Position numbers and translations under genes: made by a program
Shown: piece by piece, positions 3,986 to 63,305 of the stretch
Numbering within the stretch: position 1 is the stretch's first letter
Layout: each line of letters begins with the position of its first letter
Notes under the pieces: model-generated
What the model saw: only the letters and a program-made list of their open reading frames with translations
The model's database searches: none
Told to the model about the DNA's origin: nothing
Source: Eledone cirrhosa
Lineage: Eukaryota
Reading direction: 5' to 3'
Assembly (NCBI GenBank): GCA_964016885.1
Contig: OZ024765.1
Span: forward strand, 11,160,001 to 11,224,000
Length of the DNA: 64,000 bases

Positions 3986-4219
3986 GCTCTAGGTGTTCGA
4001 CCAACGCCTTAAACCGGAGGTTCTCAAACTTTTTGGGGCCACTGACCCTTCACAGTCCTGTAATACCCTCAACGCCCCCCCCCCATCCCTAGGGACGATT
4101 GCTGGTCTTCCACAAACAACCTTGCCTGGACTTGTTGTGCCTTGGAAGGGAACTTTCTAGATGCAAATCCCGGGGTCATTCGAGACCAAAAAGGGGTCTT
4201 AACCCTTTCTCATACATAT

Positions 4220-4826: not shown

Positions 4827-4882
4827 TAATGTGTTGGTGTATCTCGAGAAACATGTTTGTATGTTTGTATGTATAGTATGTT

Positions 4883-6849: not shown

Positions 6850-6957
<108 letters not shown>

Positions 6958-7000
6958 AAACATATTAATAAATGGAAACTATTTTTTATAAAACCATATT

Positions 7001-7066
7001 TATTTTATTATACATATTTCAAGGGCCACCAAGGCAAATTATGGTGCGCTTTCATCAGATAAAATA
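7001..7066 (-). ncRNA. Type I hammerhead ribozyme motif in a short TA-flanked element (about 6960-7238)
   Basis: TATTTTAT-CTGATGA-stem II (CACCA/TGGTG)-GAAA-TATGTA-TA-ATAAAATA; 8-bp stem I; identical to 58436-58501. Confidence 0.85.
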
Positions 7067-7245
7067 CAGATGTGTTTTATAAATAAATATTGACATACCC
7101 GGAAAAAAAGACAACCTTAACGGTTGGAGCTTCCTGGATAGTGGAGATAGTACATTTACTTATCTGTTGAGTGCTTTGTATCAGTTATAAAAATGTTTAA
7201 GCTTGTTGAATCCCAACAAATTAAATCTAACCTCTGCATATATAT

Positions 7246-19720: not shown

Positions 19721-19814
19721 ATCAGGGCGGATGGAGGCTCCATCAGCCATAGTGTAGGCAACCCGTCTAGGAGAGCTACCACTCCGAATAATTTTGTGCG
19801 GGGTGGAGAAGCCC

Positions 19815-20450
19815 CCTAAGTCCAGTAAGACAACCTCCCTAGTGCTGGTGGCATGAATAAAAGCATCCAGTCCATGCTGTGAAATGGAGGTAATGGTAAT
19901 AGCATTCAGCCATTAAAAACCATGCTAAACTATGGGGTGGCGAGGTCCCCTGAGTCCAGTAAGACAACCTCCCTAGTGCTGGTGGCATGAATAAAAGCAT
20001 CCAGTCCATGCTGTGAAATGGAGGTAATGGTAATAGCATTCAGCCATTAAAAACCATGCTAAACTATGGGGTGGCGAGGTCCCCTGAGTCCAGTAAGACA
20101 ACCTCCCTAGTGCTGGTGGCATGAATAAAAGCATCCAGTCCATGCTGTAAAATGGAGGTAATGGTAATAGCATTCAGCCATTAAAAACCATGCTAAACTA
20201 TGGGGTGGCGAGGCCCCTTGAGTCCAGTAAGACAACCTCCCTAGTGCTGGTGGCACGAATAAAAGCACCCGGTCCATGCTGTAAAATGGAGGTAATGGTA
20301 ATAGCATTCAGCCATTAAAAACCATGCTAAACTATGGGGTGGCGAGGCCCCTTGAGTCCAGTAAGACAACCTCCCTAGTGCTGGTGGCACGAATAAAAGC
20401 ACCCGGTCCATGCTGTAAAGTGATGCTGGTGTTAGGACGGGCATCCAACC
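19815..20450 (+). repeat. 134-bp tandem repeat (about 4.5 copies) derived from an RTE/SINE-type 3' tail
   Basis: ORF offsets of 134; unit contains GTGCTGGTGGCACG..AAAAGCACCC and the last unit runs into GGTGTTAGGACGGGCATCCA. Confidence 0.85.
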
Positions 20451-22739: not shown

Positions 22740-23398
22740 TCAGCTGAGTATACTGGAGCAACATGAAATGAAGTGTTTTGTTCAAGAACACAACACACAA
22801 CCCTGGCCAGGAAGTGAACACACAGCATTATGGTCATAAGTCCAACACCTTTACCACTGGAGCAACATGAAATGAAGTGTTTTGTTCAAGAACACACCAC
22901 ACAACCCAGTCCAAGAATCAAACCTACAACCTTATGATCATAAGTCCAACAACTTTACCACTGGAGCAACATGCAACGAAGTGTTTTGTTCAAGAACACA
23001 CCACACAACCCAGTCCAAGAATCAAACCTACAAGATTATGATCATAAGTCCAACACCTTTACCACTGGAGCAACATGCAACGAAGTGTTTTGTTCAAGAA
23101 CACAACACACAACCCTGGCCAGGAATCAAACCTACAAGATTATGATCATAAGTCCAACACCTTTACCACTGGAGCAACATGAAATGAAGTGTTTTCTTCA
23201 AGAACACAACACACAACCCTGGCCAGGAATCAAACCTACAACATTATGATCATAAGACCAACACCTTTACCACTGGAGCAACATGCAACGAAGTGTTTTG
23301 TTCAAGAACACAACACACAACCCTGGCCGGGCCAGGAATCAAACCCACAACATTATGATCGTAAATCTAACACTCTTACCACTAGGCCGTGTGCCTCC
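22740..23398 (-). repeat. 104-bp x6 tandem amplification of a CORE-SINE tRNA head
   Basis: ACTGGAGCAAC at 22856, 22960, 23064, 23168, 23272; SINE 5' end GGAGGCACACGGCCTAGTGG at 23398. Confidence 0.85.
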
Positions 23399-23496: not shown

Positions 23497-24607
23497 TTGC
23501 AAATACAAGCGGCCAAAATGAGATTCCTCTGAAGGGTCTTTGGAGTAACATTACTTGATAAAGTGCATAGCTTGGAGATCAGAGAGTCACTCCAGGTAGA
23601 GCTGCTACTTCTCTGAATTGAGAGATCACAACTCCTATACTATGGGCATGTGGTTAGAATGTCTCAGGAAAGAATCTCTGAATTGAGAGATCACACCTCC
23701 AATACTATGGGCATGTGGTTAGAATGTCTCAGGAAAGAATCTCTGAATTGAGAGATCACAGCTCTGATACTATGGGCATGTGGTTAGAATGTCTCAGGAA
23801 AGAATCTCTGAATTGAGAGATCACAGCTCTGATACTATGGGCATGTGGTTAGAATGTCTCAGGAAAGAATCTCTGAATTGAGAGATCACAGCTCTGATAC
23901 TATGGGCATGTGGTTAGAATGTCTCAGGAAAGAATCTCTGAATTGAGAGATCACAGCTCTGATACTATGGGCATGTGGTTAGAATATCTCAGGAAAGAAT
24001 CTCTGAATTGAGAGATCACAGCTCTGATACTATGGGCATGTGGTTAGAATGTCTCAGGAAAGAATCTCTGAATTGAGAGATCACAGCTCTGATACTATGG
24101 GCATGTGGTTAGAATGTCTCAGGAAAGAATCTCTGAATTGAGAGATCACAACTCCTATACTATGGGCATGTGGTTAGAATGTCTCAGGAAAGAATCTCTG
24201 AATTGAGAGATCACAACTCCTATACTATGGGCATGTGGTTAGAATGTCTCAGGAAAGAATCTCTGAATTGAGAGATCACAACTCCTATACTATGGGCATG
24301 TGGTTAGAATGTCTCAGGAAAGAATCTCTGAATTGAGAGATCACACCTCCAATACTATGGGCATGTGGTTAGAATGTCTCAGGGAAAGAAATTGCTGGAC
24401 AGATTTTACAGGCAAAACCAACTGGCAAGAAACCCAGGGGTACACCCTGAGCAAGATGGTTGGATAACACCCATGAACTCAGTTGGTCTCACTTGGGAAT
24501 CCAGCTGGATCAGTTGGAGACTGTTGCTTCTGACAGGACCCACTGTAGGGAGTGCTTGAGGAGTCTGTCCCCATGACTCTCTCAGGAATAAGTGGACAAA
24601 GAAGAAG
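23497..24607 (+). mobile_element. RTE family C 3' fragment containing a 65-bp x12 tandem array (23611-24385)
   Basis: Unit encodes the degenerate RTE motif IERSQL*YYGHVVRMSQER; unexpanded or once-duplicated homologues at 37541-38060 and 45565-46090. Confidence 0.88.
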
Positions 24608-26469: not shown

Positions 26470-28642
<2,173 letters not shown>

Positions 28643-28687
28643 TTACTTCAAAATATTAATAAATAAAGACAATCATGGGATCAAATA

Positions 28688-28754
28688 TATTTTATTATAC
28701 ATATTTCAGAGGTACTGAGCTATCTTCAACAGTATGTCCTCATCAGATAAAATA
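28688..28754 (-). ncRNA. Type I hammerhead ribozyme motif
   Basis: TATTTTAT-CTGATGA-GGACATACTG...CAGTACCTCT-GAAA-TATGTA-TA-ATAAAATA. Confidence 0.85.
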
Positions 28755-28822
28755 AGTTGATGCCTGACATACCTTAACTGTGTTGATGGTTATAATTTAG
28801 TCATGTTGTTAAACTTTTAATC

Positions 28823-28883
<61 letters not shown>

Positions 28884-29139
28884 GTTTCTACTTTAGACAC
28901 AAGGCCAGCAATTACCCAGTGCATTACTGGTACTTTATTTTATCGACCTTATTTTATCGATATATATATATATAATAATAATAAATTTGAAGACTAAAAT
29001 CTGTTATTTTAATAAATATATATAAATATATATACACACATATATACCCCCACACACACACACTGCTGACACATTCTATACATCATCAGGAAATCACCTC
29101 TAGGGTAATGTTTCTCATAGAGGTGACAACATTAATATT

Positions 29140-30030
29140 GATGATGATGATGATAATAATAACATAAGTATAAATGATGATGATGATAATAATAACATAA
29201 GTATAAATGATGATGATGATAATATTATTATAAATGATGATGATGATACAAATACTGATGATGATGATGATGATAATATTAATAAAAATTCATAATGATG
29301 ATGGTGATGATAATGAAGGTAATGATGTAGATAATGATGATGATGATGATAATGGTGATAACAATGGCAATGAAAATGATGATGACAATGATGATGATTA
29401 TAATAAAACATTTATGATGATGATAATGGTGATGATGATGGTAATGATAATGATGGTAATAATGCTGATGATGGTGATGATGATGGTAATGATAATGATG
29501 GTAATAATGCTGATGATGGTGATGATGATGGTAATGATAATGATGGTAATAATGCTGATGATGGTGATGATGATGGTAATGATAATGATGGTAATAATGC
29601 TGATGATGATGATGATGATGATGATGGTAATAATGCTGCTGCTGATGATGGTGATGGTGATGATGGTAATAATGTTGATGATGATGATGATAATGATAAT
29701 GATGATGATGATGCTGAAGATAATGATGATGGTGATGATAATGATGGTATGATGATGGTAATAATGCTGCTGCTGCTGCTGATGATGATGATGGTGATGA
29801 TGGTGATAATGCTGATGATGATGATGATGATGATGATAATGATGATGATGATGAAGATAATGATGATGGTGATGATAATGATGGTAATAATGCTGATGAT
29901 GATGAAGATAATGATGATAATGATGGTAATAATGCTGATGATGATGATAAAGATAATGAAGATAATGATGATGATGAAGATAATGATGATGATGATGATG
30001 ATGATAATGAAGATAATGGTGGTGATGGCA
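29140..30030. repeat. (ATG)n-based compound microsatellite
   Basis: Direct. Confidence 0.95.
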
Positions 30031-30475
30031 ATGCTTATGAAAGCAACACTATAGGACAGACTCTATTTATCACACTGGCACTATAATGACAAAATAATTA
30101 TTGCTTCAATCAGTGAATTATTGAGTAGCTGATTGATTTATCAGAAATTCCGTTAGGCAACAACAACAATAACAACAACAACAACAACAATAACAACAAT
30201 AACCCCCATCACACCCTCCCCCACCCTCACCTTACTTTCCACACATAAAAAAAAAATAATGAAAAATAAAAAAAAAAAAAATATAGAAGAAAAAATAGAC
30301 AATGCAAACACAGAAGGGAAAATATTGAACTGATCAATTCAATTGAAACTTATCTGTGCCGATCACTGATGATTATTCAATAAAGTAAGTTCCAGAATTT
30401 GGCAGACAAAGAACCAGGATAAAACCAATGAATATATTATTCTATATTTCCTATATTTCCATAATAAGTAGAAGT

Positions 30476-30517
30476 TCTTACCTGAAAAAAAAGAAAAGAA
30501 AAAATACCAATGTAAGA
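30476..30517 (-). promoter_or_regulatory. Candidate recursive splice site (zero-length exon)
   Basis: Minus strand: branch-like CTTAC, about 20-nt pyrimidine tract, then CAG|GTAAGA at 30482/30481. Confidence 0.5.
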
Positions 30518-30689
30518 ACAGAATATATATATATACAAATATTTATACACACATATATATATATATGTGTGTATGTGTGTGTGTATATATATATAATAAA
30601 TTGAAGTGAAAGCAACTGGTGCGTGTGTTTCTTATTGACAATATGACCCTCCCAAAGCATAACAATATATATATATATATATATATATA

Positions 30690-31220
30690 AGTCGATAGCT
30701 GTATAACAAAGTGCAGGGCACTAAAGATAGACGGTAGCCACGGAATAGGCAGACCTAGAAAAACCTGGGACGAGCTGATAAACTCCAACCTCACACACTT
30801 ACACCTCTCCAAGACAATGTCACTGGACCGAGACCTTTGGCGGTACTCAGTAACAGAGAAGACCCGTAAAACCTACTACAGCCAGTAGGCATCTCTAACA
30901 AAATACCCCCCCCCCCTCGTTCTATGTAAAGTTATGTTGGTGCCGCGCCATCCAGGCCGAAACAAATGAGATCGTGTAGGTGTCACGACAAAAAAACACA
31001 CAGTCCACGCTGTAATGTGGCTGTGTAGGCAACACGGTAAAAACCTCCCAGACCCACACTGTAAATGTGGTTGGTGTTAGGAAGGGCATCCAACTGTAGA
31101 AAACCTGCCAGACAGTCCTATGCGAGCAAGACAATCACTCTTGCCTCAAGTGGGACTACCCCCGTCCAGACCCATGCAAGCGTGGAACACGGACGTTAAA
31201 CGTTGATGATGATGATGATG
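30690..31220 (+). mobile_element. RTE subfamily B 3' end (ORF C-terminus plus 3' UTR)
   Basis: DSCITKCRALKIDGSHGIGRPRKTWDELINSNLTHLHLSKTMSLDRDLWR, then UTR and (GAT)n. Confidence 0.88.
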
Positions 31221-31502
31221 ATATATATAATTATTATATATATATATATCTGTGTGTAAATATATCTGTATTTATATATAATTATATATGTATATACATG
31301 TATATATATATATAACGAAGGAAATGTGGTAAGGAACCAGATGGACCATAACGCACCAAAGTACTCAATACTTAAGGTAGTAGAGTGGGTAATAGGAACG
31401 AGTATGACCCCGACGGTAGAGCTCAAGCCGTTTCGACGGCTAATTCTGGACAGAATTAGCCGTCGAAACGGCTTGAGCTCTGCCGTCGGGGTCCTACTCG
31501 TT

Positions 31503-31537
<35 letters not shown>

Positions 31538-31544
31538 GTGTAAA

Positions 31545-31955
31545 AGGTAAACAGAAATAACAACATAATCGCTACAGTATATGGAAGGAATATATTAGGT
31601 TAATGCTTGAAATAGCAGGAAGAGGGTCTTGACGTTTCGGATGCTAGTCCTTCATTAGAAGAAAGAATGAGAAATAAGATAGATTGAAGGGCTGGGTGGG
31701 CTGGAATTGGAAAAAATGTCTTAGCTGGCAGAGAAAAGATTTGAGATTGGGCATGTTGACGGAACTAGGGTCGGAGTGAAAAATACACGGGTGAGAAGAA
31801 GGTGATGTAAGAAGATTGTAGTAGAGGAAAAGTAATAGAGAGTCATGGTATATTTAATGCAAGAAGCAAAGGAAATTTCAGTGATACGGAAGATTTCCTG
31901 GTTGAAGTTCAGGTGTACTCTGGGTTGGTATCCAGTTTTGGGGTGAAAATCCAAC

Positions 31956-31957
<2 letters not shown>
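31545..31957 (-). mobile_element. Penelope-like element 3' remnant with a minimal hammerhead at 31627-31662 (core mutated to CTAATGA)
   Basis: [10 protein letters not shown] trace resembling the GIY-YIG C-terminal WIxxLxT motif, then TCTT-CTAATGA-AGGACTAGCATCC-GAAA-CGTC-AAGA; homologous to 59066-59260. Confidence 0.7.
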
Positions 31958-32012
<55 letters not shown>

Positions 32013-32328
32013 CAAATATGCAAATATATATATATATACACACATATATACATATATATATATACACACACATATATATATATATATGTACATACAAATA
32101 TACAAATATATATATATACACACATATATATACATATATATATATACACATATATATATATATACATACAAATATACAAATATATATATACACACACATA
32201 TATACATATATATATATACACACATATATATATATACATACATACAAATATACAAATATATATATATATACACACATATATACATATTTATATACACACA
32301 TATATATATATATACATACATATATGAT

Positions 32329-32674
32329 GGAGGCACATGGCTTAGTGGTTAGAGCATTGGCCTTGCAATCGAAAGGTTGTGAGTTCAATTCTCAGACCAG
32401 GTGATGTGTTGTTTCCTTGAGCAAGACACTTTATTTCACATTGCTCCAGTTTACTCAGCTGTAGAAATGAGATGATAGGGACTGGGGTCCATATCATTCC
32501 ACTGCAAAGTGGTCGTGGAGGTGCCACAGCAAAAAAGCACCCAGCACTCACTGTAAATGAGGTTGGTGTTAGGAAGGGCATCCAGCTGTAGAAATCAAGC
32601 CAGAATCAGTTCCCGTCCCACCCTTGCAAGCAAGGAAAAAGCGGACGTAAAATGAAATGATGATGAAATGATGA
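32329..32674 (+). mobile_element. Full-length CORE-like SINE
   Basis: A box TGGCTTAGTGG, B box, CORE-like domain, RTE tail. Confidence 0.88.
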
Positions 32675-32678
32675 TATA

Positions 32679-32871
32679 ATAATTGTTTCTACTTTAGGCA
32701 CAAGGCCAGCAAATTACCCAGTGCATTACTGGTACTTTATTTTATCGACCTCGTAAGGATGAAAGGCAAAGTAAACCTCGGCGGGATTTGAACTCAGAAT
32801 GGCAAGGGCCGTAACTCTATGCGTCAAAGCATGGCGTCCGACTCTCTACCGATACTGCCAATCCACCGCCC
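32679..32871 (-). mobile_element. Full-length tRNA-derived SINE with Nin/Deu-like domain (fragments at 28880, 35180, 38245, 59312)
   Basis: B box GAGTTCAAATCCC; TTGCCTTTCATCCTTACGAGGTCGATAAAATAAAGTACCAG; (ATT)n end. Confidence 0.8.
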
Positions 32872-33127
32872 TAGCATATAATAATAATAATAAAAAAAGT
32901 ATGATTTGTTATGTCTTCATTACACTTATTGAGTAGATATACACATTTCGTTATTGATCAGCTCAAGGTTTGATCTATATTGATCTGGCTGAACTCTAGA
33001 ATCAAAAGCTTGTTGGACTTCTGTTGTAGTAATTACAGAATGAACCTCTGTATGTATATATGTGTGTATTTATCATAAGAACAGATAAAAATATTTGCTC
33101 TACGGGTTTTTATATTCATATATATTT

Positions 33128-33160
<33 letters not shown>

Positions 33161-33185
33161 GGCTCGATAAGGATTATATATATAC

Positions 33186-33217
<32 letters not shown>

Positions 33218-33331
33218 GTATATATATAATCCTTATTGAGCCCTCTTCAGATTTTAGTCTTCACAATTATTATTACTATATATATATATAGCCGTCCAAA
33301 CGGCTTGAGCTCTGCCGTCGGGGTCATACTT

Positions 33332-33369
<38 letters not shown>

Positions 33370-33455
33370 TTGTTAAACAATATTCTGTCAAAGAATGAGT
33401 TTTACAGTAGATTGGAAACATAATTTTCAGGGAAAATAATTTTCAGTAGTTATTA

Positions 33456-33761
33456 ATATTAAAATATAAGTATTAATAAAATAGATGTTCTTTTGATCAA
33501 TTACATTTTATTATACATATTTCGGATGTATGACACTACGTCCTCATCAGACAAAATATAATGATACATGACATACCCTGAGATGTTAAATGGTTAAGAT
33601 TTACTACCTTGATTAAATCTTAACCATTTAACATCTCAGCGTATGTCATGTATCATTATATTTTGTCTGATGAGGACGTACTGTCGTACATCGGAAATAT
33701 GTATAATAAAATGTAATTGATCAAGAGAACATCTATTTTATTAATACTTATATTTTAATAT
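33456..33761. mobile_element. Fold-back element (about 147-bp arms) carrying hammerheads at 33502-33560 (-) and 33657-33715 (+)
   Basis: TATATTTTGT-CTGATGA-GGACGTA...TACATC(C/G)-GAAA-TATGTA-TA-ATAAAATGTA on both arms. Confidence 0.85.
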
Positions 33762-33848
33762 ATATATATATATATATACGTGAAAAGTAAATGGTAAAAA
33801 ATACAGCAGATGATGAAGTACAATGAAAAAATATACTAGTAAGAAAAG

Positions 33849-33883
33849 TCTTAAGGTTTCGGTCGTAGTCCTTCATCAGAAAA
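33849..33883 (-). ncRNA. Minimal hammerhead motif (family of 31627 and 59154)
   Basis: TTTT-CTGATGA-AGGACTACGACC-GAAA-CCTT-AAGA. Confidence 0.65.
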
Positions 33884-33972
33884 TAGAATGAGAATTCTCA
33901 GCTTGTATTTGGCAGGCCTTTTCAATATATATAAAATTGTATGTTTTTTTTTTTTAGCTTAACAGCTATATA

Positions 33973-34317
33973 CAGTGTACCCTCGACATTTGCAGCCCTG
34001 GTTATTCATGGAATTTTCCTTAGAACCTAACTAATAAATGTTCATGGAAACCACCATAAATTCGTGGAATCATAAATATCTTTTTTCGTGGCAATATATA
34101 TATTTTTTAATGTTAAATTATTAATAACAATACACCATATTTGCTGGCCTATTGGATCCCCCTTCACATAAGAGGCTCCCTCTTTTTTTTAAAATTATAT
34201 TTTACATTATATTTTGATGTTTATAGCCGTTCTTATGGGCCACGTCCGTTGTTCATGGTTTCTCACTCTTCACGGGTACTCTAGGGACCTAACCCCGTGA
34301 AGACCAGGGGACTACTG
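33973..34317. mobile_element. pogo/Tigger-like MITE
   Basis: TA|CAGTGTACCCTCG ... CAGGGGACTACTG ends. Confidence 0.55.
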
Positions 34318-34546
34318 TTTTAATGTTTGTCTTTCCTCTCTTAATCCTTTGGACAGTGTTTGGCTTATGTCAGATGCTGTTGACCAGCACTGCCATTGGT
34401 TGGGCTCGAAATGGCCCAAGTCCATCTCAACAGCCAATGACCATGGAGTTCTGTGTCCTTCGTTTGTATATTTATTTTTATAAAATACTTTTTTTTTTGT
34501 TTTGTTTCCGTTTGTTATCATGTCCTTTGTTTATCAATTTTCCTAA

Positions 34547-34764
34547 TCCGTTAGCATATAAACTGGCCATATCTGGCCAGAATTCTCTCACCTCTTTCTG
34601 TTCAAACCAGCTATAACCAGCTGCTCATACTGATGTTAAGGTATTGTTCTCAACATAAATATAAAAATCTCATAGACTCGATATCATGTGAGATAATTTT
34701 GTGGAATAAAGCCTTTACCATGAAAATACTATAGTACATATAGAGTAATGTAAATGTTAAAGGG
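34547..34764 (-). mobile_element. piggyBac-type MITE, single-unit form
   Basis: Reverse complement of the 45179-45405 family; ends AAAGGG|TTAA. Confidence 0.75.
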
Positions 34765-34766
34765 TT

Positions 34767-35031
34767 AAAGCCAGTGCAATGTGGTAGATATATATAAAGG
34801 GCAAGGATGACAAATAAAACAAAACCAAGTGTTTACCCAGTATATTTCAACATAATATTTCAGGGCTAATACCCTCTTTTCAAATGTGAAACGGAAACAG
34901 ATGAACCGTTTTTGTTTCACATTTGAAAAGAGGGTATTAGCCCTGAAATATACTGGGTAAAACATTACTTTGTTTTGTTTTGTTTGTCATCCTTTGCCCT
35001 TTATTTATTTCTACCACATTGTACTGGCTTT
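34767..35031. repeat. Fold-back element with a degenerate hammerhead-like motif
   Basis: Long inverted arms; ACAT-TTGAAAAG-AGGG/CCCT-GAAA-TATT-ATGT on the minus strand. Confidence 0.7.
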
Positions 35032-35354
35032 TTATTAGACACACAAACATATATATATATATATAAATTGCAAACTTGTCTATCACCACTGAATATGAAC
35101 CTGCAGATTGCAAAAGCATGAAAGTACTTGTTCAATTAACACTTAACATTTCATATTCTACCATACTATTTCATTATATCAAATCCCGCCGAGGTTAACT
35201 TTGCCTTTCATCCTTACGGGGTCGATAAAATAAAGTACCAGTAATACACTGGGTAATTGCTGGCCTTGTGCCAATAGTAGAAACAATTATATCATTATAA
35301 TTTTAAAGGATTGTAAATAAAACGAGTAAACAACAAAGTTGGATTTCCTTTTAT

Positions 35355-35419
<65 letters not shown>

Positions 35420-35535
35420 TGTTGCTGATGGGTCATGTTTCTCGTGGCTGTAAAAAGCATAAAACTTTACAGCTGTATATCCTCCTCTTTAGCAGAATGT
35501 GGAAAGTTGGCTTGTTAAAGACACCTACTGAGAAT

Positions 35536-35619
<84 letters not shown>

Positions 35620-35668
35620 TCTTCCTCCTCTTCGTTTAACATCGATCTTCCACGCTAGCATGGGTTAG

Positions 35669-35700
<32 letters not shown>

Positions 35701-35732
35701 GGTGTGTGTGGGTGGGTGGGTGGGTGGGTGTG

Positions 35733-35778
<46 letters not shown>

Positions 35779-36007
35779 CATGTACACACATGTGTCTGTA
35801 TATACAATGTTATAGAATGACACACATGATCTATTTAATCATTGATGGGGCACAATGTTGAAATATATATATAATGTTGCTGAAATGTGTGAGTGTGTGT
35901 GTATATATATGTATGTATATACACACACAAACATTTGTACATATATATATACAGAGATAGACATATATATATAAACACACACATATATATATATTTATAT
36001 ATATATA

Positions 36008-36055
<48 letters not shown>

Positions 36056-36110
36056 TATATATATATTTATACTCACTCACACACACACATATATATATAT
36101 GTATATATAT

Positions 36111-36165
<55 letters not shown>

Positions 36166-36419
36166 TATATATTTATACTCACTCACACACACACATATAT
36201 ATATATATGTATATATATACACAAGTTGCTGAGCCATAAACTAGATTCTGGGTGTATAATCAATACTCAATAGCAGAAATGTAGTTAATTTTAAAGAAAT
36301 ATATATAAACAACAGCATGAAGTGTTTATTACACTACATTACTATAAATGACACGTCAGGAGTTTTATTGTCAAATTTGATCTCATTTGCTGTAAAGTTT
36401 TTACATTAAGAGAGACAAA

Positions 36420-37052
36420 GGTTACATTTTTTTCCCCTGAAATTACTACACTTCGTCTATTGATTAATGAAAAACTCTCTGCACTGAAACATGGGCAGTG
36501 GATATGGGAGATAGAAGATATATGAAGGTGGGAGATATATAAATCTAGAATAATTAAAGTAGCTGTCTTCAGTTCAACAGTAGCTGACAAGGCGAATATT
36601 TTTTTGTTCTGAAATTAACTACTTTTTGTGTAATGACTAATGATAGAGTCAGAGCAATGAAAAATGGGCAGTGAATTTATGAGATAGAAGATAAGTGAAG
36701 GTGGGAGATATATGAATCTACAATGGTTAAAGTAGCTGTCCTTAGTGCAACAGTAGCTGACAAGGTGAAACTAGTACAGCGTTCCTTTGTCAGTGTTGAA
36801 CAAACGAACAACGATGGTTGCTGGACACTACGGCTTAATACGGGATGTTTGTTTACAAAGCATTATAAATACCGAGCATTATAATAAATGTTCGGTGAAT
36901 CCATACGTACATATATATATGTGTGCATGTATGTATATATATATACATACTACTGTGCGTCTGTATACATATATGTATGTACGTGTACATACTTATATTT
37001 AAGTAACAACCGTACTAAGAGTGGGAAATGAAATTTTGTTTCATTTTTTTCC

Positions 37053-37109
<57 letters not shown>

Positions 37110-38585
37110 AAATTAACTACATTTTGGCTATTGATTAATCCCCTTGGCACTATTGGCGACATAAGTCACCGATAGAGTAGTCTCCCCTAAATACATAATA
37201 CAGTTTCAAGGGAAGCAACTCATAAAAAAATTCACCCTCCTAAAGGTTAATGAGACTCTGAGCAATGAAACATGGGCAGTGTATTTGTGAGATAGAAGAT
37301 ATATGAAGATGGGGGATATATAAATCTAGAATGGTTGATAAATAAAGTGTCCACTCTGTTCTTTTGTCAATGTACAGTCAATTTATATACTAACCACATA
37401 CAATGTCAACAACTGCTGTGTATTGAATGGAAAAATCAAGTAACTGTCTTTAGTTTAACAGTGGCTGACAAGGTGAATTTATTTCTTTTCTGAAATTAAC
37501 TGCATTAACTTACATATGTGTGTAATGACTGAAATAATACGATCACAAATACAAGTGACCGAAATGGGATTCCACCAGAGGGTCTTTGGAATAACGTTAC
37601 TCGATAAAGTACATAACTCAGAGATGAGAGAGTCACTCCAGGTAGAGCTACTATTTCTCTGAATTGAGAGATCACAACACTGATACTATGGCTATGTGGT
37701 TAGAATGTCTCAGGAAAGAATCACTGTAGAAATTTGTAGCTTGGAGATGAGAGAGTCACTCCAGGTAGAGCTACTATTTCTCTGAATTGAGAGATCACAA
37801 CTCTGATACTATGGCTATGTGGTTAGAATGTCTCAGGAAAATATTGCTGGACAGATTTTACAGGCAAAAGCATCCGGCAAGAAACCCAGGAGTAGGCTAC
37901 GAGCAAGATGGTTGGATAACATCCATAAGCTCAGTTGGTCTCACTTGGGTACCCAGCCGGATCAGTTGGAGACAGTTGCTTCTGACAGGACCCACTGGAA
38001 GGAATTTTTGAGGACTCTGCCTCCACAACCCTCTGAGGAATAAGTGGGCGAAGAAGAAGAAAAATATTAATGATAGACTCTGAGCGAGCAATGAAACATG
38101 GGCAGTGTATTGAGGAGATAGAAGATATATGAAGGTGGGAGATATATAAATATAGAATGGTTGATAAATGAAGTGTCCACTGTGTTCTTTTGACCATATA
38201 TGGTTGATTCAAATTGCAGTTATTAGAATGTTAGATAGAATGCTGAGGTCAACTTTGCCTTTCATCCTTTTAAGGTCGATAAAAAAAAGCACTGGGGGAC
38301 GATTCTTCTTTATCTCCTTCTCAATTCCTCACTCTCTCACTTTCTATCTTCTTCTGGAAAAAATCTGCTGTATTCAGACTTTGAAATTAATGGGCTCCGC
38401 CTGGCTTTAATAAAAAGGCCCAAGAAATGCTGTATGTCAATATAGCACCCCTACAACTCTATCAGGAGTTACGGGGACCATACATACATGGTTGATTTTT
38501 ATACTAACTAACCACATGCAATGTCAACAAGTGCTGTATGGCAAAATCAAGTAACTGTCTTTAGTTAAACAGTGGCTGACACAGT
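36420..38585 (+). repeat. Old degenerate local repeat (4-5 copies) broken by later insertions, including a TTAA-flanked 108-bp insert at 37139-37246
   Basis: CATGGGCAGTG...GAGATAGAAGATATATGAAGGTGGGAGATATATAAATCTAGAAT at about 36490, 36665, 37270, 38097. Confidence 0.75.
37541..38060 (+). mobile_element. RTE family C 3' fragment
   Basis: YYGYVVRMSQENIAGQILQAKASGKKPRSRLRARWLDNI; (GAA)n tail. Confidence 0.82.
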
Positions 38586-38845
38586 CAATAGACACTTAAA
38601 CTATTCAGATATCTGTTCAGAAAACATGTGGTAAGTATTGTACATTTATTTCATGTAGCATATTTGAGGTTCATTCACCTCATTTAAATTGCCGAGAACA
38701 AATGTCATTGCCATGACTACTTGTTGGGTAATTATGACCTTTCGGTGATTAAATATCTCATGTGTGTCACTCTAAATAATATATATACACACATATATGC
38801 ATGTGTATATATATATATGTATATATATGTGTATCTGTGTGTGTG

Positions 38846-38907
<62 letters not shown>

Positions 38908-39242
38908 CATACATATATATATATATATATCTGTGTATATATATATATATACACACATATGACTGAATGTATGTATGCATATTTATGTGTGAGTATATAT
39001 ATATTCATATACACGCACATACATACACACATGATAATAATGATGATGATGATGATATACAAACACATGAGCTGTGAGGTAAACCCCAAGTCTAAGTGAT
39101 AACAGGTTATATATATATATGCAAACGAGTTACTATATGTATATATATTTATATATAAATATATATATACATATCATCATCATCATTTTACATCCGCTTT
39201 TCCCTGCTTGCAAGGGTGCAATGTTATTATATATATTATATC

Positions 39243-39313
<71 letters not shown>

Positions 39314-39337
39314 TATATTATATATATATAAATATAA

Positions 39338-39393
<56 letters not shown>

Positions 39394-39394
39394 T

Positions 39395-39425
<31 letters not shown>

Positions 39426-39439
39426 TATATATATATATT

Positions 39440-39470
<31 letters not shown>

Positions 39471-39667
39471 ATATATATATATATATATTATATATATATA
39501 TTATATATATATAAATATTATATATATATAATATATGTATATATATATAATATATATATAAATATTATATATATACAATATATATATATATATATAATAT
39601 ATATATATATATAAGTATATATATATATATTATATATATATAAGTATATATATATATATTATATATA

Positions 39668-41339
39668 TCATCATCACCGTTTTACGTCCGTTCTTCCACG
39701 CTAGCATGGGTTAGACGGGTTGTCCTGTTGTGGGCAGTGTCTGGTCGGCTGACCATGCCTTGCTCATACAGGAACTGATCTGGCTTGATTTCTACAGCTG
39801 GATGCCCTTCCTAACACCAACCTCATTTACAGTGAGTGCTGGGTGCTTTTTCGTGGCGCCTACACGTCCACTTTACAGTGTGGGCTGGGTGCTTTTTTGC
39901 CGTGGCACCTCCACGACCACCTTGCGGTGGGGGGGGGGGGGGGGCATATTGTTTATATGCTTCAGCATGTACCCATGGGAGGTCGGGTACCCTGTATTAC
40001 TGCGTGACGCCAGAAGTCACGGTCGCGTGTCATTGACTTTGAGAGGTGTAGTTGGGTAAGGTCGGCTTTTATCACCTCATCCCAAGTCATCTTGGGTCTC
40101 CCCACTCCGCGGTTTCCATCAACTTCTAGTGCTCTGCACCTTTTTATGCAGCTGTCATCCTTCATACGCATCACATGTCCATACCAGCGTAACCGCCTCT
40201 CCTGCACGCAGCATTTGATTCCTCTTATGCTCAGTCTCTCTCTCAATTCATTTATGCTTTGTCGTTCACGTATATTACTGTTACACATCCATCGGAGCAT
40301 GCAGGCTTCGTTTCTCTCTAATCTACGTAAGTCTTCCACCTTCAGCGCCCAGGTCTCACTACCATGCAACATCGCTGTTCGGATACACGCATCATACAGT
40401 CTGCCTTTCATTCTGAGGGAGAAGCCTTTTGCAGCTAGCAGTGGTAGTAGTTCCCTAAACTTCTTCCATCCCGTTCTTACCCTAGTTATTGTACTTTCTG
40501 AGCACCCACCTCCGTTGCTAATTCGGTCACCTAGGTAGCAGAAGCTGTCTACTGTTTCTACAGGGCCCTCCCAGAGATTGGTGGTACTTGTTTCCTGTGG
40601 CTGTTTGCTTGCTGTTTCAGCACAGCTGCTGCATGTGAATCCTACATTCTTAATTAAGCTTCCTGAGATCCCGCTACATCTCTTGTGTACCCATTGTTTG
40701 CATTTGGGGCAAAGAATGGAGTTCCTACCTACACCTTTCCTACATACTGAGCAAGGCCATTTCCCTGAGGGGATCTGGGTTCTGTTTTCTCGTCTACTTA
40801 TAAGGACCTTAGTCTTTGTCATGTTGACTTTGAGGCCCTTTCTCTCTAGTCCCTGCTTCCAGGTTTGGAATTTATTCTCTAGTTCTACCATAGATTCAGC
40901 TATGAGTGCGAGGTCATCAGCATACAGGAGTTCCCATGGGCATCCGGTCTTAAACTCCTCCGTTATTGCCTGCAGGACTATGATGAACAGGAGAGGGCTA
41001 AGAACAGAGCCCTGGTGGACCCCAACCTGTACGCTAAATTCCTCGCTATACTCATTGCCAATCCTAACTTTGCTGACTGCTCCCCTATACATGGCTTGTA
41101 CCGCTTTCACAAGCCATTCATCTACTCCTAGTTTTCTAAGAGCCCACCAGATTACTGCACGTGTAACTCTGTCAAAGGCTTTCTCAAGGTCGACAAATGC
41201 CAAGTAGAGTGGCTTACTTTTAGCTAGGTACATTTCCTGTAATTGCCTCACAAGGAAGAGCGCATCAGTGGTGCCTTTCCCTGGTACAAACCCAAATTGC
41301 ATCTCGTCTATATTCACCCGGTCCCTAATCAGCTGTGCT
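39668..41339 (-). mobile_element. 5'-truncated young RTE-clade LINE inserted in (TA)n
   Basis: Uninterrupted RT ORF, about 290-nt 3' UTR, (GAT)n tail. Confidence 0.95.
39962..41317 (-). CDS. RTE non-LTR retrotransposon reverse transcriptase, C-terminal 451 aa, with embedded PHD-type zinc finger
   Basis: QFGF, FVDLEKAFD, GVHQGSVLSPLLF, YADD, FCYLG, HGSETW, RRLRWYGHVMR and GRPKMTW motifs. Confidence 0.95.
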   Translation of the reverse strand: MNIDEMQFGFVPGKGTTDALFLVRQLQEMYLAKSKPLYLAFVDLEKAFDRVTRAVIWWALRKLGVDEWLVKAVQAMYRGAVSKVRIGNEYSEEFSVQVGVHQGSVLSPLLFIIVLQAITEEFKTGCPWELLYADDLALIAESMVELENKFQTWKQGLERKGLKVNMTKTKVLISRRENRTQIPSGKWPCSVCRKGVGRNSILCPKCKQWVHKRCSGISGSLIKNVGFTCSSCAETASKQPQETSTTNLWEGPVETVDSFCYLGDRISNGGGCSESTITRVRTGWKKFRELLPLLAAKGFSLRMKGRLYDACIRTAMLHGSETWALKVEDLRRLERNEACMLRWMCNSNIRERQSINELRERLSIRGIKCCVQERRLRWYGHVMRMKDDSCIKRCRALEVDGNRGVGRPKMTWDEVIKADLTQLHLSKSMTRDRDFWRHAVIQGTRPPMGTC

Positions 41340-41454
41340 ATATATAATATATATATATATATAATATATATATATATTATATATATATATTATATATATA
41401 TATATATATTATATATATATATATATATTATATATATATATTATATATATATAT

Positions 41455-41549
<95 letters not shown>

Positions 41550-41864
41550 ATATATAAAGGAGAATGGGAACTTAATAAAGAAAGAAATCACTTTCCTTAA
41601 TTAATTAAATAACTTAATTTAACTGGAGATTAATTAATTTATTAATTATGGCAAAATTGATTGAGTTGTGCATTGCCGCATGAAGAAATGACGGTGAATG
41701 TGCAACATGCACTATAGTGCTGCAATTATATTACACATACACATATATACATATATATATACACACACATACATATATATGTATATATACATATATGTGT
41801 GTATGTATACATATATATATATATATATATATACACACTGGGATCCCTCCCAAAATGTATAGTC

Positions 41865-41940
<76 letters not shown>

Positions 41941-42056
41941 ATGTGTGTCTATAGTGGTAGCTATGGTTCTTCCGTAGGCAGAATGCCAAAATTAGCACTC
42001 AATATTCATCAGAGTAGAGTGTATATATTATCAAATTTGCTCCGGACATAACAGAC

Positions 42057-42145
42057 GTGTCTGAAAGAACCCGCAGAAGTAGAATCAGCCAGATCCATAC
42101 AAGGACCATGACTCGAGCTACATGCCAGCGAAACGTTTGTAACAC
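42057..42145 (+). ncRNA. Hammerhead-like motif with long stem II
   Basis: GTGT-CTGAAAGA-...-GAAA-CGTTTG-TA-ACAC; one extra A in the core. Confidence 0.55.
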
Positions 42146-42489
42146 AAAATAAACTAAGTCCAGATGCATCCCTGATTTTTCGTATTCTTGATAATATATA
42201 TATTATCCAGAATTAGCCGTCGAAACGGCTTGAGCTCAGCCGTCGGGGTCTTACTTGTTCCTATATATATATATATATATATATAAGTTAAAACAATGAA
42301 ATAAAAAATCATGATTTTTTATTTCCTTGTTTTAACTTATATCATGACTCTGTTTTCCTTTTAATGTTTTATTGTTTTCCGAGATTTATCTTAACCTACA
42401 ACACTTTCACCATATGGATTACATCGAGTTCTTCATGCAGAATAGACCCCACAACTTTCTGTGGATACCTCTGTGTGTATATACATATA

Positions 42490-42902
42490 CAGAGGTGATA
42501 AAAGCCGACCTTACCCAATTACACCTCTCAAAGACAATGACACACGACCGTGACTTCTGGCGTCACGCAGTAATACAGAGTACCCGACCTCCCATGGGTA
42601 CAAGCTGAAGCATATAGACAATATGCTCCCACACCCCCCACTGCAAGGAGGTCGTGGAGGTGCCACGGCAAAAAAGCACCCAGCCCACACTGTAAAGTGG
42701 ACGTGTAGGCGCCACGAAAAAGCACCCAGCACTCACTGTAAATGAGGTTGGTGTTAGGAAGGGCATCCAGCTGTAGAAATCAAGCCAAATCAGTTCCTGT
42801 ATGAGCAAGGCATGGTCAGCTGACCAGACACTGCCCACAACAGGACAACCCGTCTAACCCATGCTAGCGTGGAAGAACAGACGTAAAATGGTGATGATGA
42901 TA
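42490..42902 (+). mobile_element. 3' end of the same RTE family as 39668 (further fragments 43965-44147 -, 63195-63290 +)
   Basis: EVIKADLTQLHLSKTMTHDRDFWRHAVIQSTRPPMGTS plus UTR. Confidence 0.92.
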
Positions 42903-42936
42903 TGTAAATACATATATATATATATATATATATATA

Positions 42937-43281
42937 TCATCATTTCATCATTTCATTTTCCGTCCGCTTTTTCCCTGCTTGCAAGGGTGGGACGGGAACT
43001 GATTCTGGCTTGATTTCTACAGCTGGATGCCCTTCCTAACACCAACCTCATTTACAGTGAGTGCTGGGTGCTTTTTTGCCGTGGCACCTCCACGACCACT
43101 TTTGCAGTGGAATGATAGGGAACCCCAGTCCCTATCATCTCATTTCTACAGCTGAGTAAACTGGAGCAATGTGAAATAAAGTGTCTTGCTCAAGGAAACA
43201 ACACATCACCCGGTCTGAGAATTGAACTCACAACCTTTCGATTGCAAGGCCAATGCTCTAACCACTAAGCCATGTGCCTCC
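42937..43281 (-). mobile_element. Full-length CORE-like SINE
   Basis: Reverse complement of 32329-32674. Confidence 0.88.
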
Positions 43282-43354
43282 GTATATATATATATACATA
43301 TGTAAAAAGAAAACAGAAATAATACAATCAGTACAGTATATGGAAGGAAGGAAT

Positions 43355-43402
<48 letters not shown>

Positions 43403-44144
43403 TTACGCACACACAAACACACATATACACGCACATCCTAACAGAATTAAGACAATATGAGGTGACAAAATCAATGGTGGTTCCGAAACCATGGATCAGA
43501 TCCATTTATTGAGCATTTTAATGCAAATCAATATTTGCTGCACGCGGCTCCAATGGTTGCATGCAGCATGCAACAGTTCTGCAATGGTGCAGTCACCAGA
43601 GTATTGATGGTTACACTGGATTCTCAAACTATGTAAGACGCTGCTGTTTTACAGTGTGCATGCAATGTGCAGCAGACACAGTAGATGCAGTAAATGCAGC
43701 TATATTGATCCAGAGAAACGACTAAACAGCTTCTCAACAAACTTTCCAAAGAGTTTAATATCTTTTGCTTGGTTTCAATTTCAAATCTCACTCTCTCTCT
43801 CTCTCTCACACTCCCCTTTTTCCCACTCTCTTTCTCTCTCCCATTCTCACTGTCTCTCACTGTTTCTTTCTCACTCTCCCCCCCTCTCTTTCTGCCTCTC
43901 TCCCTCTCTCTTTCTCAGTCACACTTATTGCTTATTTTTTGTTTGGTATTCTGAGGTTTGTATATCATCATCATCATCATCACCGTTTTACGTCCGTTCT
44001 TCCACGCTAGCATGGGTTAGATGGGTTGTCCTGTTGTGGGCAGTGTCTGGTCGGCTGACCATGCCTTGCTCATACAGGAACTGATCTGGCTTGATTTCTA
44101 CAGCTGGATGCTCTTCCTAACACCAACCTCATTTACAGTGAGTG

Positions 44145-44189
<45 letters not shown>

Positions 44190-44200
<11 letters not shown>

Positions 44201-44500
44201 AGATCAAAAGATGGTTAAAAGAGTTCCATGTATTTTATTATGCGCATTTCAAAAACAAATATCATCATGCAATAACATTTGTGTTTTCATCAGATAAAAT
44301 AGGAAGACATGATATGAAGGTTAAAAACACTTGTTGATTTAAAACTGCACTATCCACAAGTGTTTTTAACCTTCATATCATGTCTTCCTATTTTATCTGA
44401 TGAAAACACAAATGTTATTGCATGATGATATTTGTTTTTGAAATGCGCATAATAAAATACATGGAACTCTTTTAACCATCTTTGATCTTATATATTATAT
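44190..44500. mobile_element. Near-perfect fold-back element with hammerheads at 44231-44301 (-) and 44389-44459 (+)
   Basis: TATTTTAT-CTGATGA-AAACACAAATGTTAT..ATGATATTTGTTTTT-GAAA-TGCGCA-TA-ATAAAATA. Confidence 0.9.
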
Positions 44501-44650
44501 ATACTCCAGTCCTACAAACTGTAGAGTGCTTCTTATCCGATATCTGCATTGCTTTATTGTACTACAATAAAACTCACCTCCTACATATATATATATATAT
44601 ATTTATTAACATATTACATATGTTTCTTCGTCGATCAGCTCGAGGCAAAA

Positions 44651-44740
44651 CGTATCTGAAGATCCTTCGAATGCAGAGTCGGGTTCGATCTGTAACAGAA
44701 CTTGCCTCGAGCTGATTGACGGAGAAACACATGTAATATG
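44651..44740 (+). ncRNA. Type I hammerhead with long stem II; its 3' half is duplicated in inverted form at 44604-44648
   Basis: CGTAT-CTGAAGA-TCC...GGA-GAAA-CACATG-TA-ATATG. Confidence 0.75.
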
Positions 44741-44793
44741 TTAATAAATGTGATATGATGCAACACTGATTCCGTGTTCTTTATAATATATAA

Positions 44794-53227: not shown

Positions 53228-53600
53228 ATATAGATTACATAAGTATCAAAGTTATGTTTAAATCATTTAATCGCTGACAATTGTTTCTTCCAAACTTCCG
53301 TTTGGAGTCATCGGAGCATTATCAATGTTTGTACATATATAGTTAACCTCCTAATCAACTGTACAATCGTATAGATACATATATATTGATGTTGTGGACA
53401 ACAGTTTCATCTTTACAGGGTGGAATGGATGCGAGATATATTATACGAGAATTGTACAATAATTCAAATTAAGATTAAAATTAAAAATTATATGTACAAA
53501 CATTGATAATGCTCTGAGGACTCCAAGCTTAAGTTTGGAAGAAACAATTGTCAGCGATTAAATGATTTAAACATAACTTTGATACTTATGTAATCTATAT
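53228..53600. mobile_element. Inverted repeat pair (about 110-bp arms) with hammerheads at 53268-53321 (-) and 53507-53560 (+)
   Basis: TAATGCT-CTGAGGA-CTCCAAGC/GTTTGGAA-GAAA-CAATTG-TC-AGCGATTA; the other arm has CCGATGA and a GGAA tetraloop. Confidence 0.88.
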
Positions 53601-53747
53601 TCCTGCTCTGTAAAACACCTGATGATCTTACATTGAGCTATTTCTCTTACTGGGAATAAGGTAGTAATAAATTACTGACCTTTCCTGTTTAAAGTTGTTT
53701 ATAGTATCTTTAATATTATATACATATATATATATATATATATACGT

Positions 53748-58234: not shown

Positions 58235-58435
58235 GTACATATACATATAACTACATATATATATAACTATATATAACTATATATAACTATATATATATAT
58301 ATATATGCAGAGATTATATTTAATTTGTTGGGATACAACAAGCTTAAAAATATTTTTATAACTGATATAAAGCACTCAACAAGTTAAGGTTGTCTTTTTT
58401 CAGTCATTATTTATTTATAAAACTAATCTGTATTG

Positions 58436-58501
58436 TATTTTATCTGATGAAAGCGCACCATAATTTGCCTTGGTGGCCCTTGAAATATGTATAATAAAAT
58501 A
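58436..58501 (+). ncRNA. Type I hammerhead ribozyme motif in element about 58306-58543
   Basis: TATTTTAT-CTGATGA-AAGCGCACCA...TGGTGGCCCTT-GAAA-TATGTA-TA-ATAAAATA. Confidence 0.85.
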
Positions 58502-62115: not shown

Positions 62116-62580
62116 TATATAACATACATATATACATATATATATGTATATATACACACATATATAACATACACATATATCATCATCATCATCATCATCG
62201 TTTAACGTCCATGTTCCACGCTTGCATGGGTTTGGACAGGAGTTTTCCCACTTGAGGCAAGAGTGGTTGTCTTGCTCGCATAGGACTGTCTGGCGGGTTT
62301 TCTACAGCTGGATGCCCTTCCTAACACCAACCACATTTACAGTGTGGGACTGGGAGGTTTTTACCGTGTTGCCTACACGGCCACATTACAGCGTGGACTG
62401 TGTGTTTTTTTGTCGTGACACCTATATATATATATAAACAATGAGTTAAAGACTTTGTTGATATGTAATCAACTGAGTTTTGTTTATAACAGATATGAAG
62501 CACTCGACAGATAAAACTTATCTGGAGTTATGATAATAATAGTAATAAACAAAAGATATAACTTTATATCATCACTATTT

Positions 62581-62656
62581 ATTTCATTATATATATTTCG
62601 GGGATGCAAAAATTTATGTTGGACATAAATGAGAGCATGCTTTCTTCAGGTAAAAT
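62581..62656 (-). ncRNA. Degenerate type I hammerhead motif
   Basis: ATTTTAC-CTGAAGA-..ATGC..ATTTATGT/ACATAAAT..GCAT..-GAAA-TATATA-TA-ATGAAAT. Confidence 0.62.
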
Positions 62657-63305
62657 TCAACATGAGATGTATAAAATGTTTGATATACTCACAAGTGGGT
62701 ATATATATATATACACACACACAGACATATGTATATACAAAAAGTATCCAATCCAACCTGTAAGGTAGTTGAGCAAGATGGTTGGATAACATCCTTGAAC
62801 TTGGCTGGTTTTGCTTGAAGATCTAGCTGACAGGACCCACTGGAGGGAAGGTTTGAGGACTCTGCCCCCCCCCATGACCCTCTCGGGAATAAGTGGGTGA
62901 AGAGGAAGGATATATATATATATATATATATATATAACAAAGCAGGTGTGGTAAGGAACCAGATGGACCATAACGCACCAGAGTACTCAATACTTACGGT
63001 AGTAGAGTGGGTAATAGGAAAATGTTTGACCTCCGACGGCAGAGCTCAAGCCGTTTCGACGGCTATTTCTGGACTACTACTGAGTCCAGAAATAGCCGTC
63101 GAAACGGCTTGAGCTCTGCCGTCGGGGTTAGACATTTTCCTATATATATATATATATAGAGAGAGAATCAGGTCCCATATGAACAAGACGAAGTCAGCCG
63201 ACTGGACACTGCCCACAACACAGGACAACCCGTCTAACCCATGCTAGCGTGGAAGAACGGACGTAAAACGGTGATGATGATGATGTTGATGATATATATA
63301 GGAAA

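What the first reader, a model, noticed from the sequence alone, without database searches (positions are those of the whole stretch)
28688..44459. Covariation within one hammerhead superfamily: constant scaffold, swapped stem II and stem III
Copies at 7001/58436, 28688, 33657, 44389 and 62581 share the TATTTTAT/ATAAAATA-type stem I and the catalytic core. They have five unrelated stem II sequences that each still pair. Stem III changes from ATATGTAT to ATGCGCAT to ATATATAT and stays self-complementary. This points to selection on RNA structure in the source elements.
Basis: seen in the sequence. Interest (0 to 1): 0.75.

Follow-up and report, generated by a model that had tools for sequence, protein, structure and literature searches.

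The report
Penelope retrotransposon hammerheads with covarying stems
These are hammerhead (self-cutting RNA) motifs at the ends of a known kind of jumping gene, present in tens of thousands of copies in this animal genome; their stems changed letter by letter while staying paired, which points to selection on RNA shape, and they likely cut as pairs, although cutting is untested.

Summary
They are 3' ends (pLTRs) of Hydra-clade Penelope-like retrotransposons: full-length relatives carry two direct hammerheads around an ~800-aa telomerase-like RT plus C-terminal GIY-YIG ORF, in (TA)n. About 83,000 matches genome-wide (control 69). Selection on RNA structure is supported: differences between families keep pairing 14 of 15 times, rare copy variants 24 of 87; G-U outnumbers A-C 13:1 between families but 16:14 within; 0 of 5000 neutral tree simulations reach the observed pairing. 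'Unrelated, swapped' stem II is not supported: the core-proximal seven positions are homologous, differ almost only by transitions and share a fixed unpaired C at pair 4. Several window copies are decayed. The palindromic stem III likely serves double-hammerhead cleavage; both that and such covariation are published for Penelope hammerheads. Cleavage and expression are untested. The scan found this family and its C mismatch before on other DNA of this genome (e1-8670794).

The parts
7001..7066 (-). Type I hammerhead, family A; stem III ATATGTAT; predicted cut after 7009. Lies in an insertion ~6952-7240 whose opposite arm is the family tail
58436..58501 (+). Type I hammerhead, family A, same HHR sequence as the 7001 copy; predicted cut after 58493; inverted tail at ~58306-58378, (TA)n on both sides
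28688..28754 (-). Type I hammerhead, family B; one A.C break at stem II pair 5; predicted cut after 28696; 5'-truncated single arm ~28644-28825 between (TA)n runs
33502..33560 (-).
33657..33715 (+). Type I hammerhead, family C; G.G at the first stem II pair (decayed copy); short 3' end at ~33760
44231..44301 (-).
44389..44459 (+). Type I hammerhead, family D; stem III ATGCGCAT; predicted cut after 44451
44460..44586 (+). 3' end (~44497) and optional tail (to ~44586) of the family D pLTR; in full-length copies the tail runs on into the 5' UTR and ORF
62580..62657 (-). Decayed type I hammerhead, family E (CUGAAGA core); A.C at stem II pairs 1-2, C.A at stem I pair 1; tail at ~62436-62530

Best explanation
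These are type I hammerhead motifs in the terminal pseudo-LTRs of several related Hydra-clade Penelope-like retrotransposon families, left as 5'-truncated single or inverted two-arm copies in (TA)n, and they likely cut the element's RNA as double hammerheads paired through the 8-nt palindromic stem III. Shown: the motifs, their link to an RT plus GIY-YIG ORF, homologous stem II arms with compensatory transitions, a fixed unpaired C at stem II pair 4, and neutral decay of inserted copies. Inferred: a transcript of a tandem or full-length element (two same-strand hammerheads 3.3-3.9 kb apart) or two RNA molecules pair their stem III, each core cuts after AUA, and unit-length RNA results; only source lineages with an intact fold kept transposing, which fixed pairing-preserving changes through G-U intermediates. 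Inferred from published work: reverse transcription starts at two sites downstream of the hammerhead, giving the short end and the tail end; folding may need the element's protein. The two hammerheads of an inverted pair lie on opposite strands and cannot dimerise within one transcript.
For: Full-length elements with two direct HHRs around the ORF: L044 (808-codon frame), L045, L046 (family D), L047 (family A sibling, frameshifted). HHR-tail-5'UTR-ORF start: family B 6 of 12 loci, family C 3 of 7 loci; family E one locus with the EN end 932 nt upstream. ORF model pLDDT 85.8; the six best PDB matches are telomerase RTs; Hydra motifs DKT, CxCX5C, no CCHH, CxxC and CxH present (against PMC8557442 section 11). 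83,455 matches against 69 for the reversed pattern. Pairing kept:broken 14:1 between 8 families, 24:63 among rare variants, Fisher p=1.8e-6; G-U:A-C 13:1 against 16:14. 15 families: 94% of cells paired, 15 of 19 pairs with two-sided change, 0 of 500 shuffles, slid controls 31-54%. Neutral simulation on a flank tree: 0 of 5000 in each of two settings. Monomer stem III has pairing probability 0.00 and costs 1.9-3.5 kcal/mol; two family D copies cofold unconstrained into the double hammerhead.
Against: No cleavage or expression data. For families A, B, C and E the predicted minimum-energy folds and cofolds are not the hammerhead (stem I probability 0.0-0.34; the stem I 5' strand can pair over the GAAA), and RNAalifold recovers only stem II. 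The G10.1-C11.1 pair typical of Penelope hammerheads occurs in only 1 of the 5 families. Subfamily-level variants keep pairing only 8 of 16 times. A 2-bp stem III with a tetraloop is described as typical of invertebrate hammerheads that cleave efficiently (PMC7229834 passages), so a dimer may not be needed. In the one reconstituted PLE, hammerhead cleavage was not needed for insertion in vitro (PMC11167929 passages). The flank tree has weak deep support (36-48). The B and A ORF links are to sibling subfamilies of the window copies.
Confidence: 0.7

Rival explanations
1. The fold is selected, but it works as a protein-assisted monomer or as a protein-binding structure of the retrotransposon RNP; the unpaired C is a recognition site and the palindrome is secondary.
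For: The anole Penelope hammerhead cleaves only with its protein, and cleavage mutants still insert in vitro (PMC11167929 passages). Weak first stem II pair and poor spontaneous folding in four of five families. C at pair 4 is fixed in 17 of 17 family consensuses while its partner varies.
Against: The inner four stem III bases stay self-complementary through two-sided changes (GCGC, ACGU, GAUC beside AUAU and AUGU) in 16 of 17 family consensuses; the exception rests on two copies and ATACGCAT is neutral decay. A monomer does not need this.
Confidence: 0.2
2. Stem II modules were exchanged between families by recombination or template switching on a constant scaffold.
For: Distal stem II differs in length and cannot be aligned well; several pair states need 3-5 changes on the flank tree, which reticulation could also give.
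Against: Proximal arms are homologous (13-14 of 14 R/Y matches); intermediates occur in the genome lists; the well-supported sister families (B with C, 92; A with M, 99) differ stepwise, B and C at 2 of 14 positions.
Confidence: 0.05
3. The pattern is a mutational artefact: AT-rich, (TA)n-like sequence is self-complementary by itself, and A-to-I editing or DNA hairpin conversion makes apparent covariation.
For: ATATATAT is a microsatellite-like word; one-sided stem I changes among the five families are all A/G.
Against: Two-sided changes need U-to-C as well; no A>G excess on the sense strand in 29 EN copies (singletons A>G 5, T>C 7) or in flanks; DNA-level processes are strand-symmetric, as the 190:200 count of the two mirror stem III mutants shows, yet family differences are 13:1.
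Confidence: 0.05

Closest known systems
Hydra clade of C-terminal EN+ Penelope-like elements and their hammerheads (Craig et al. 2021, PMC8557442; abstract, sections 3 and 11, passages, supplement parts 2-3 and a search of the rest), including Hydra-1_Obim
   Same: Single ORF with RT and C-terminal GIY-YIG, DKT, CxCX5C linker, no CCHH, (TA)n target, type I hammerhead near the 3' end, inverted 5'-truncated arms, optional tail; by eye the N-terminal RT part follows the printed Hydra-1_Obim protein.
   Different: Different hammerhead from Hydra-1_Obim; RW(I/T/R/G) instead of RWK; unit ~3.7 kb with ~1 kb 3' UTR; stem III is 8 nt (2 bp plus palindromic tetraloop) against 9-10 nt in the File S2 Hydra rows; long stem II with a fixed 1x1 C mismatch, which I did not see by eye in the 26 Hydra rows of File S2; at least tens of thousands of copies.
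Penelope hammerheads of metazoans (Cervera and de la Pena 2014, PMC4209133; parts 1-2 of 4 read, supplement file 2 searched, file 1 not searchable)
   Same: [quoted passage not shown]
   Different: No conserved G10.1-C11.1, no constant bulge after A9, longer stem I (8 bp), mismatch inside stem II.
Double hammerheads of newt and axolotl satellite / non-LTR retrozymes (PMC7229834 passages; preprint 10.64898/2026.07.22.740005 parts 1-2 of 5; PMC3088659 passages incl. legend of Fig. S8)
   Same: Type I fold, weak stem III with palindromic loop, dimer model.
   Different: Here the motifs belong to coding elements and their truncated copies, not to short tandem non-coding repeats; canonical 4-bp stem II with its loop 1-loop 2 nucleotides is not seen.

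Membership tests
Type I hammerhead ribozyme | Core CUGANGA ... GAAA ... UH with three stems, stem I open | tested here: met
   the 62649 and 33667 copies are decayed at core-adjacent pairs
Type I hammerhead ribozyme | Site-specific self-cleavage after H17 | not testable with these tools
   needs an in vitro assay or RNA ends
Type I hammerhead ribozyme | Match to an Rfam hammerhead model | tested here: not met
   0 gathering matches in the window; no hammerhead model among 24 matches at E<=10 on 44150-44600; a library miss, likely from the long stem II
Penelope-like elements (EN+) | Single ORF with telomerase-like RT and GIY-YIG endonuclease | tested here: met
   ORF in L044/L050; best fold matches are TERT; EN by motif only; Pfam, NCBIfam and PDB sequence searches gave nothing significant
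Penelope-like elements (EN+) | pLTRs: direct partial tandems, inverted 5'-truncated arms, optional tail | tested here: met
Hydra clade | C-terminal EN without CCHH; CxCX5C linker; CxxC and CxH around the conserved E and N; DKT | tested here: met
   against PMC8557442 section 11
Hydra clade | RWK motif | tested here: inconclusive
   RRLRW or RRVRW aligns by eye with RRMRWK of printed Hydra proteins, but K is replaced
Hydra clade | Insertion into (TA)n | tested here: met
Hydra clade | Placement in an RT phylogeny with reference Hydra elements | not tested
   reference proteins were only viewable in the supplement, cut at ~400 residues
Penelope minimal hammerhead (Cervera 2014) | No helix III, bulge after A9, G10.1-C11.1 | tested here: not met
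   8-nt stem III; first stem II pair A-U, G-U, G-C, A.C across the five families
Non-LTR retrozymes | Short non-coding tandem repeats with a hammerhead in each unit | tested here: not met
   window copies are single or inverted arms outside tandem arrays; families link to ORFs

The most novel reading that the evidence does not exclude
The stem III palindrome is a family-specific pairing code, like the dimer-initiation palindromes of retroviral RNA (recalled): it lets a Penelope family's RNA dimerise and cut only with its own kind amid tens of thousands of related copies, and the invariant unpaired C in a long stem II is a new docking or protein-switch element that gates the cut. Family D (ATGCGCAT) pairs with itself at -10.5 kcal/mol but with the common palindromes at -0.1 and +5.7; against a general code, ATATGTAT and ATATATAT cross-pair as well as they self-pair.
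Probability: 0.12. Interest if true: 0.65.

Novelty: new variant of a known kind. Interest (0 to 1): 0.3.

Why it matters
The role of hammerheads in Penelope-like elements is open: they are widely conserved, yet weak in vitro and dispensable for insertion in the one reconstituted element. This genome offers a natural mutational series (many families, intact ORFs, strong and weak palindromes, a fixed mismatch) and a clean contrast between selected source lineages and neutrally decaying copies, so the dimer and protein-assisted models can be tested directly. The covariation itself is expected and published for this class.

Tried and rejected
Rfam found no hammerhead. Pfam, NCBIfam and PDB sequence searches did not recognise the ORF or five homologues. 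RNA evidence: no RNA holder listed; three contig runs laid showed only presence, the two 3' ends and far greater depth over the pLTR than the ORF. The ORF in L032 looked linked to a family B hammerhead but is a separate nested element. A search for the family E tail joined to a 5' UTR found nothing. ATACGCAT as an amplified subfamily with a broken palindrome was rejected: 190 against 200 for its mirror mutant, spread over 17 stem II backgrounds in 29 copies. A-to-G editing bias as cause was rejected. No covarying partner or common distal stem I motif for the pair-4 C was evident by eye. Literature searches: 'hammerhead + stem II + C-C mismatch + type I' gave 0 papers; octopus or cephalopod with hammerhead or ribozyme terms listed none on these families; two searches listed general papers. 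The library lacks most subscription journals, figures are not held, and supplement file 1 of PMC4209133 and bioRxiv supplements could not be seen, so the mismatch may be in print. R-scape was not available.
Full report
Observation. All six places hold a type I hammerhead: stem I 5' strand, CUGANGA, stem II, GAA, an 8-nt stem III from A15.1 to U16.1, A17, stem I 3' strand. The copies at 7001, 28688 and 62581 read on the minus strand. The copies at 33657 and 44389 have inverted twins at 33550 and 44293. A stem-checked scan gave 8 hits against a mean of 0.01 in 100 shuffles; the 62581 copy did not pass it and a ninth motif of another family (53514) did. Rfam does not detect them.

Abundance. The window lies in a 3.0-Gb, microsatellite-rich animal genome; a cephalopod host is inferred only weakly, from one named homologue at 37% identity and earlier notes of the scan. 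Patterns of decreasing strictness gave 7,370, 49,717 and 83,455 matches, with controls 0, 0 and 69. The last pattern fixes RRRC and YYY at the base of stem II.

Host element. Copies end about 45 nt after the hammerhead, or after a further tail, in (TA)n; they are 5'-truncated and often inverted pairs. L044, L045 and L046 carry two direct family D hammerheads 3.3-3.9 kb apart around a long ORF; L047 does so for a sibling of family A with a frameshifted ORF. In L044 the tail of the upstream pLTR runs into the 5' UTR and ORF. The same junction was found for family B (hammerhead, tail and ORF start in 6 of 12 loci) and family C (3 of 7 loci). Family E rests on one locus with an EN end 932 nt upstream; a junction search failed. 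The window itself has no match to this ORF. The 799-aa model is confident (pLDDT 85.8) and its six best PDB matches are telomerase RTs. DKT, CxCX5C, absence of CCHH, CxxC, CxH and the (TA)n target fit the Hydra clade as defined in PMC8557442 section 11; RWK is only partly kept. The supplement lists a Hydra element from Octopus bimaculoides whose hammerhead differs from these.

Are the stem II sequences unrelated? No. From 258 distinct instances in the window and fetched loci I grouped 254 into 17 families and left out four singletons. Pair states move among A-U, G-U and G-C, or U-A and C-G. The 5' C is present in 17 of 17 consensuses, including four distant families with other stem I sequences that turned up by chance in flanks; position 4 is unpaired in 239 of 244 copies of the 13 close families (30 loci came from a pattern that required the C). 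Only the distal stem and loop differ in length. Stem I shows no two-sided change among the five.

Is there selection on RNA structure? Yes, on source lineages. Across eight families with at least five copies, distinct differences keep pairing 14 of 15 times (7 two-sided), while rare variants within families keep it 24 of 87 times (p=1.8e-6; types are counted, not events). Subfamily-level variants are in between, 8 of 16. G-U against A-C is 13:1 in consensuses and 16:14 in rare variants, which marks the ribozyme strand. On 15 family representatives (D2 and K left out) 94% of cells pair and 15 of 19 pairs change on both sides, above all 500 shuffles and all slid controls; that shuffle ignores relatedness. 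A neutral simulation on a tree of the flanks (9 families, 8 pairs, divergence matched) reached the observed 97% pairing in 0 of 5000 runs at both settings; the tree is weak at depth and the structure came from the same sequences. Inserted copies decay neutrally: the two mirror mutants of ATGCGCAT, one breaking and one keeping the RNA duplex, occur 190 and 200 times. No A-to-G bias explains the wobble excess. Several window copies carry such decay and are probably inactive.

Mechanism. A monomer stem III of two A-U pairs is predicted not to form, while the 8-mer self-duplex is -10.5 (D), -3.2 (E) or -2.2 kcal/mol (A, B, C). Two family D motifs cofold without constraints into the double hammerhead; the other four families do not, and prefer folds that can cover the GAAA. 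RNAalifold recovers only stem II. I therefore commit to dimeric cleavage of tandem transcripts, probably helped by the element's protein, at 0.7; the steps of transcription, dimerisation and cleavage are inferred. In the anole element the hammerhead needs protein, is not required for insertion in vitro, and the tail marks two RT start sites (PMC11167929, passages).

Comparison and novelty. Hammerheads in pLTRs, family-wise compensatory changes, palindromic loop 3 and the dimer model are all in PMC4209133; palindromic stem III series are also in PMC3088659 (passages), and compensatory changes in a satellite hammerhead in PMC2837043 (abstract). What differs is the 8-nt stem III, the weak first stem II pair and the fixed C mismatch in a long stem II, not seen by eye in the 26 Hydra rows of File S2 nor found by my searches.

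Verdict. Real, under selection, mostly explained: a new variant of a known kind. Interest 0.3.

Noticed in passing
window 53230-53710: Another two-arm insertion with a hammerhead of a different family: core at 53514(+), stem III ACAATTGT (perfect palindrome), 8-bp stem II above a C.A pair; twin on the minus strand with a mutated core.
   Followed up: partly
window 34760-35030: Inverted repeat whose left arm, on the minus strand, reads as a minimal hammerhead with a U3-A8 core variant and a 4-nt palindromic stem III (seen).
   Followed up: no
window 33879(-), 59185(-), 59514(+): Further CUGAUGA...GAAA motifs with short stem II, probably minimal hammerheads of other Penelope families.
   Followed up: no
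window 44590-44760: Long hairpin element between (TA)n runs directly after the family D tail, with CTGAAGA inside its loop region.
   Followed up: no
window 33597-33625 and loci L135-L159: Many independent family C inverted pairs share the same junction to the base, beside a 7-bp hairpin, with the tail on either arm; suggests a fold-back hotspot or a palindromic template. The query favoured such hits.
   Followed up: partly
tails of all families (e.g. window 44500-44530): A shared ACTC...GAGTGC motif, able to form a hairpin, begins the tail in close and distant families; candidate RT start or protein-binding site.
   Followed up: no
L044, L050 and other loci: Family D is young: open frames of about 800 codons exist and the 150 best EN matches are 93-100% identical.
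   Followed up: partly
window 4218-4830, 16701-17846, 19800-20419, 22752-23383, 23610-24390, 26495-28426: Tandem arrays with periods 154, 72, 134, 104, 65 and 49, some built from units of common dispersed repeats.
   Followed up: no
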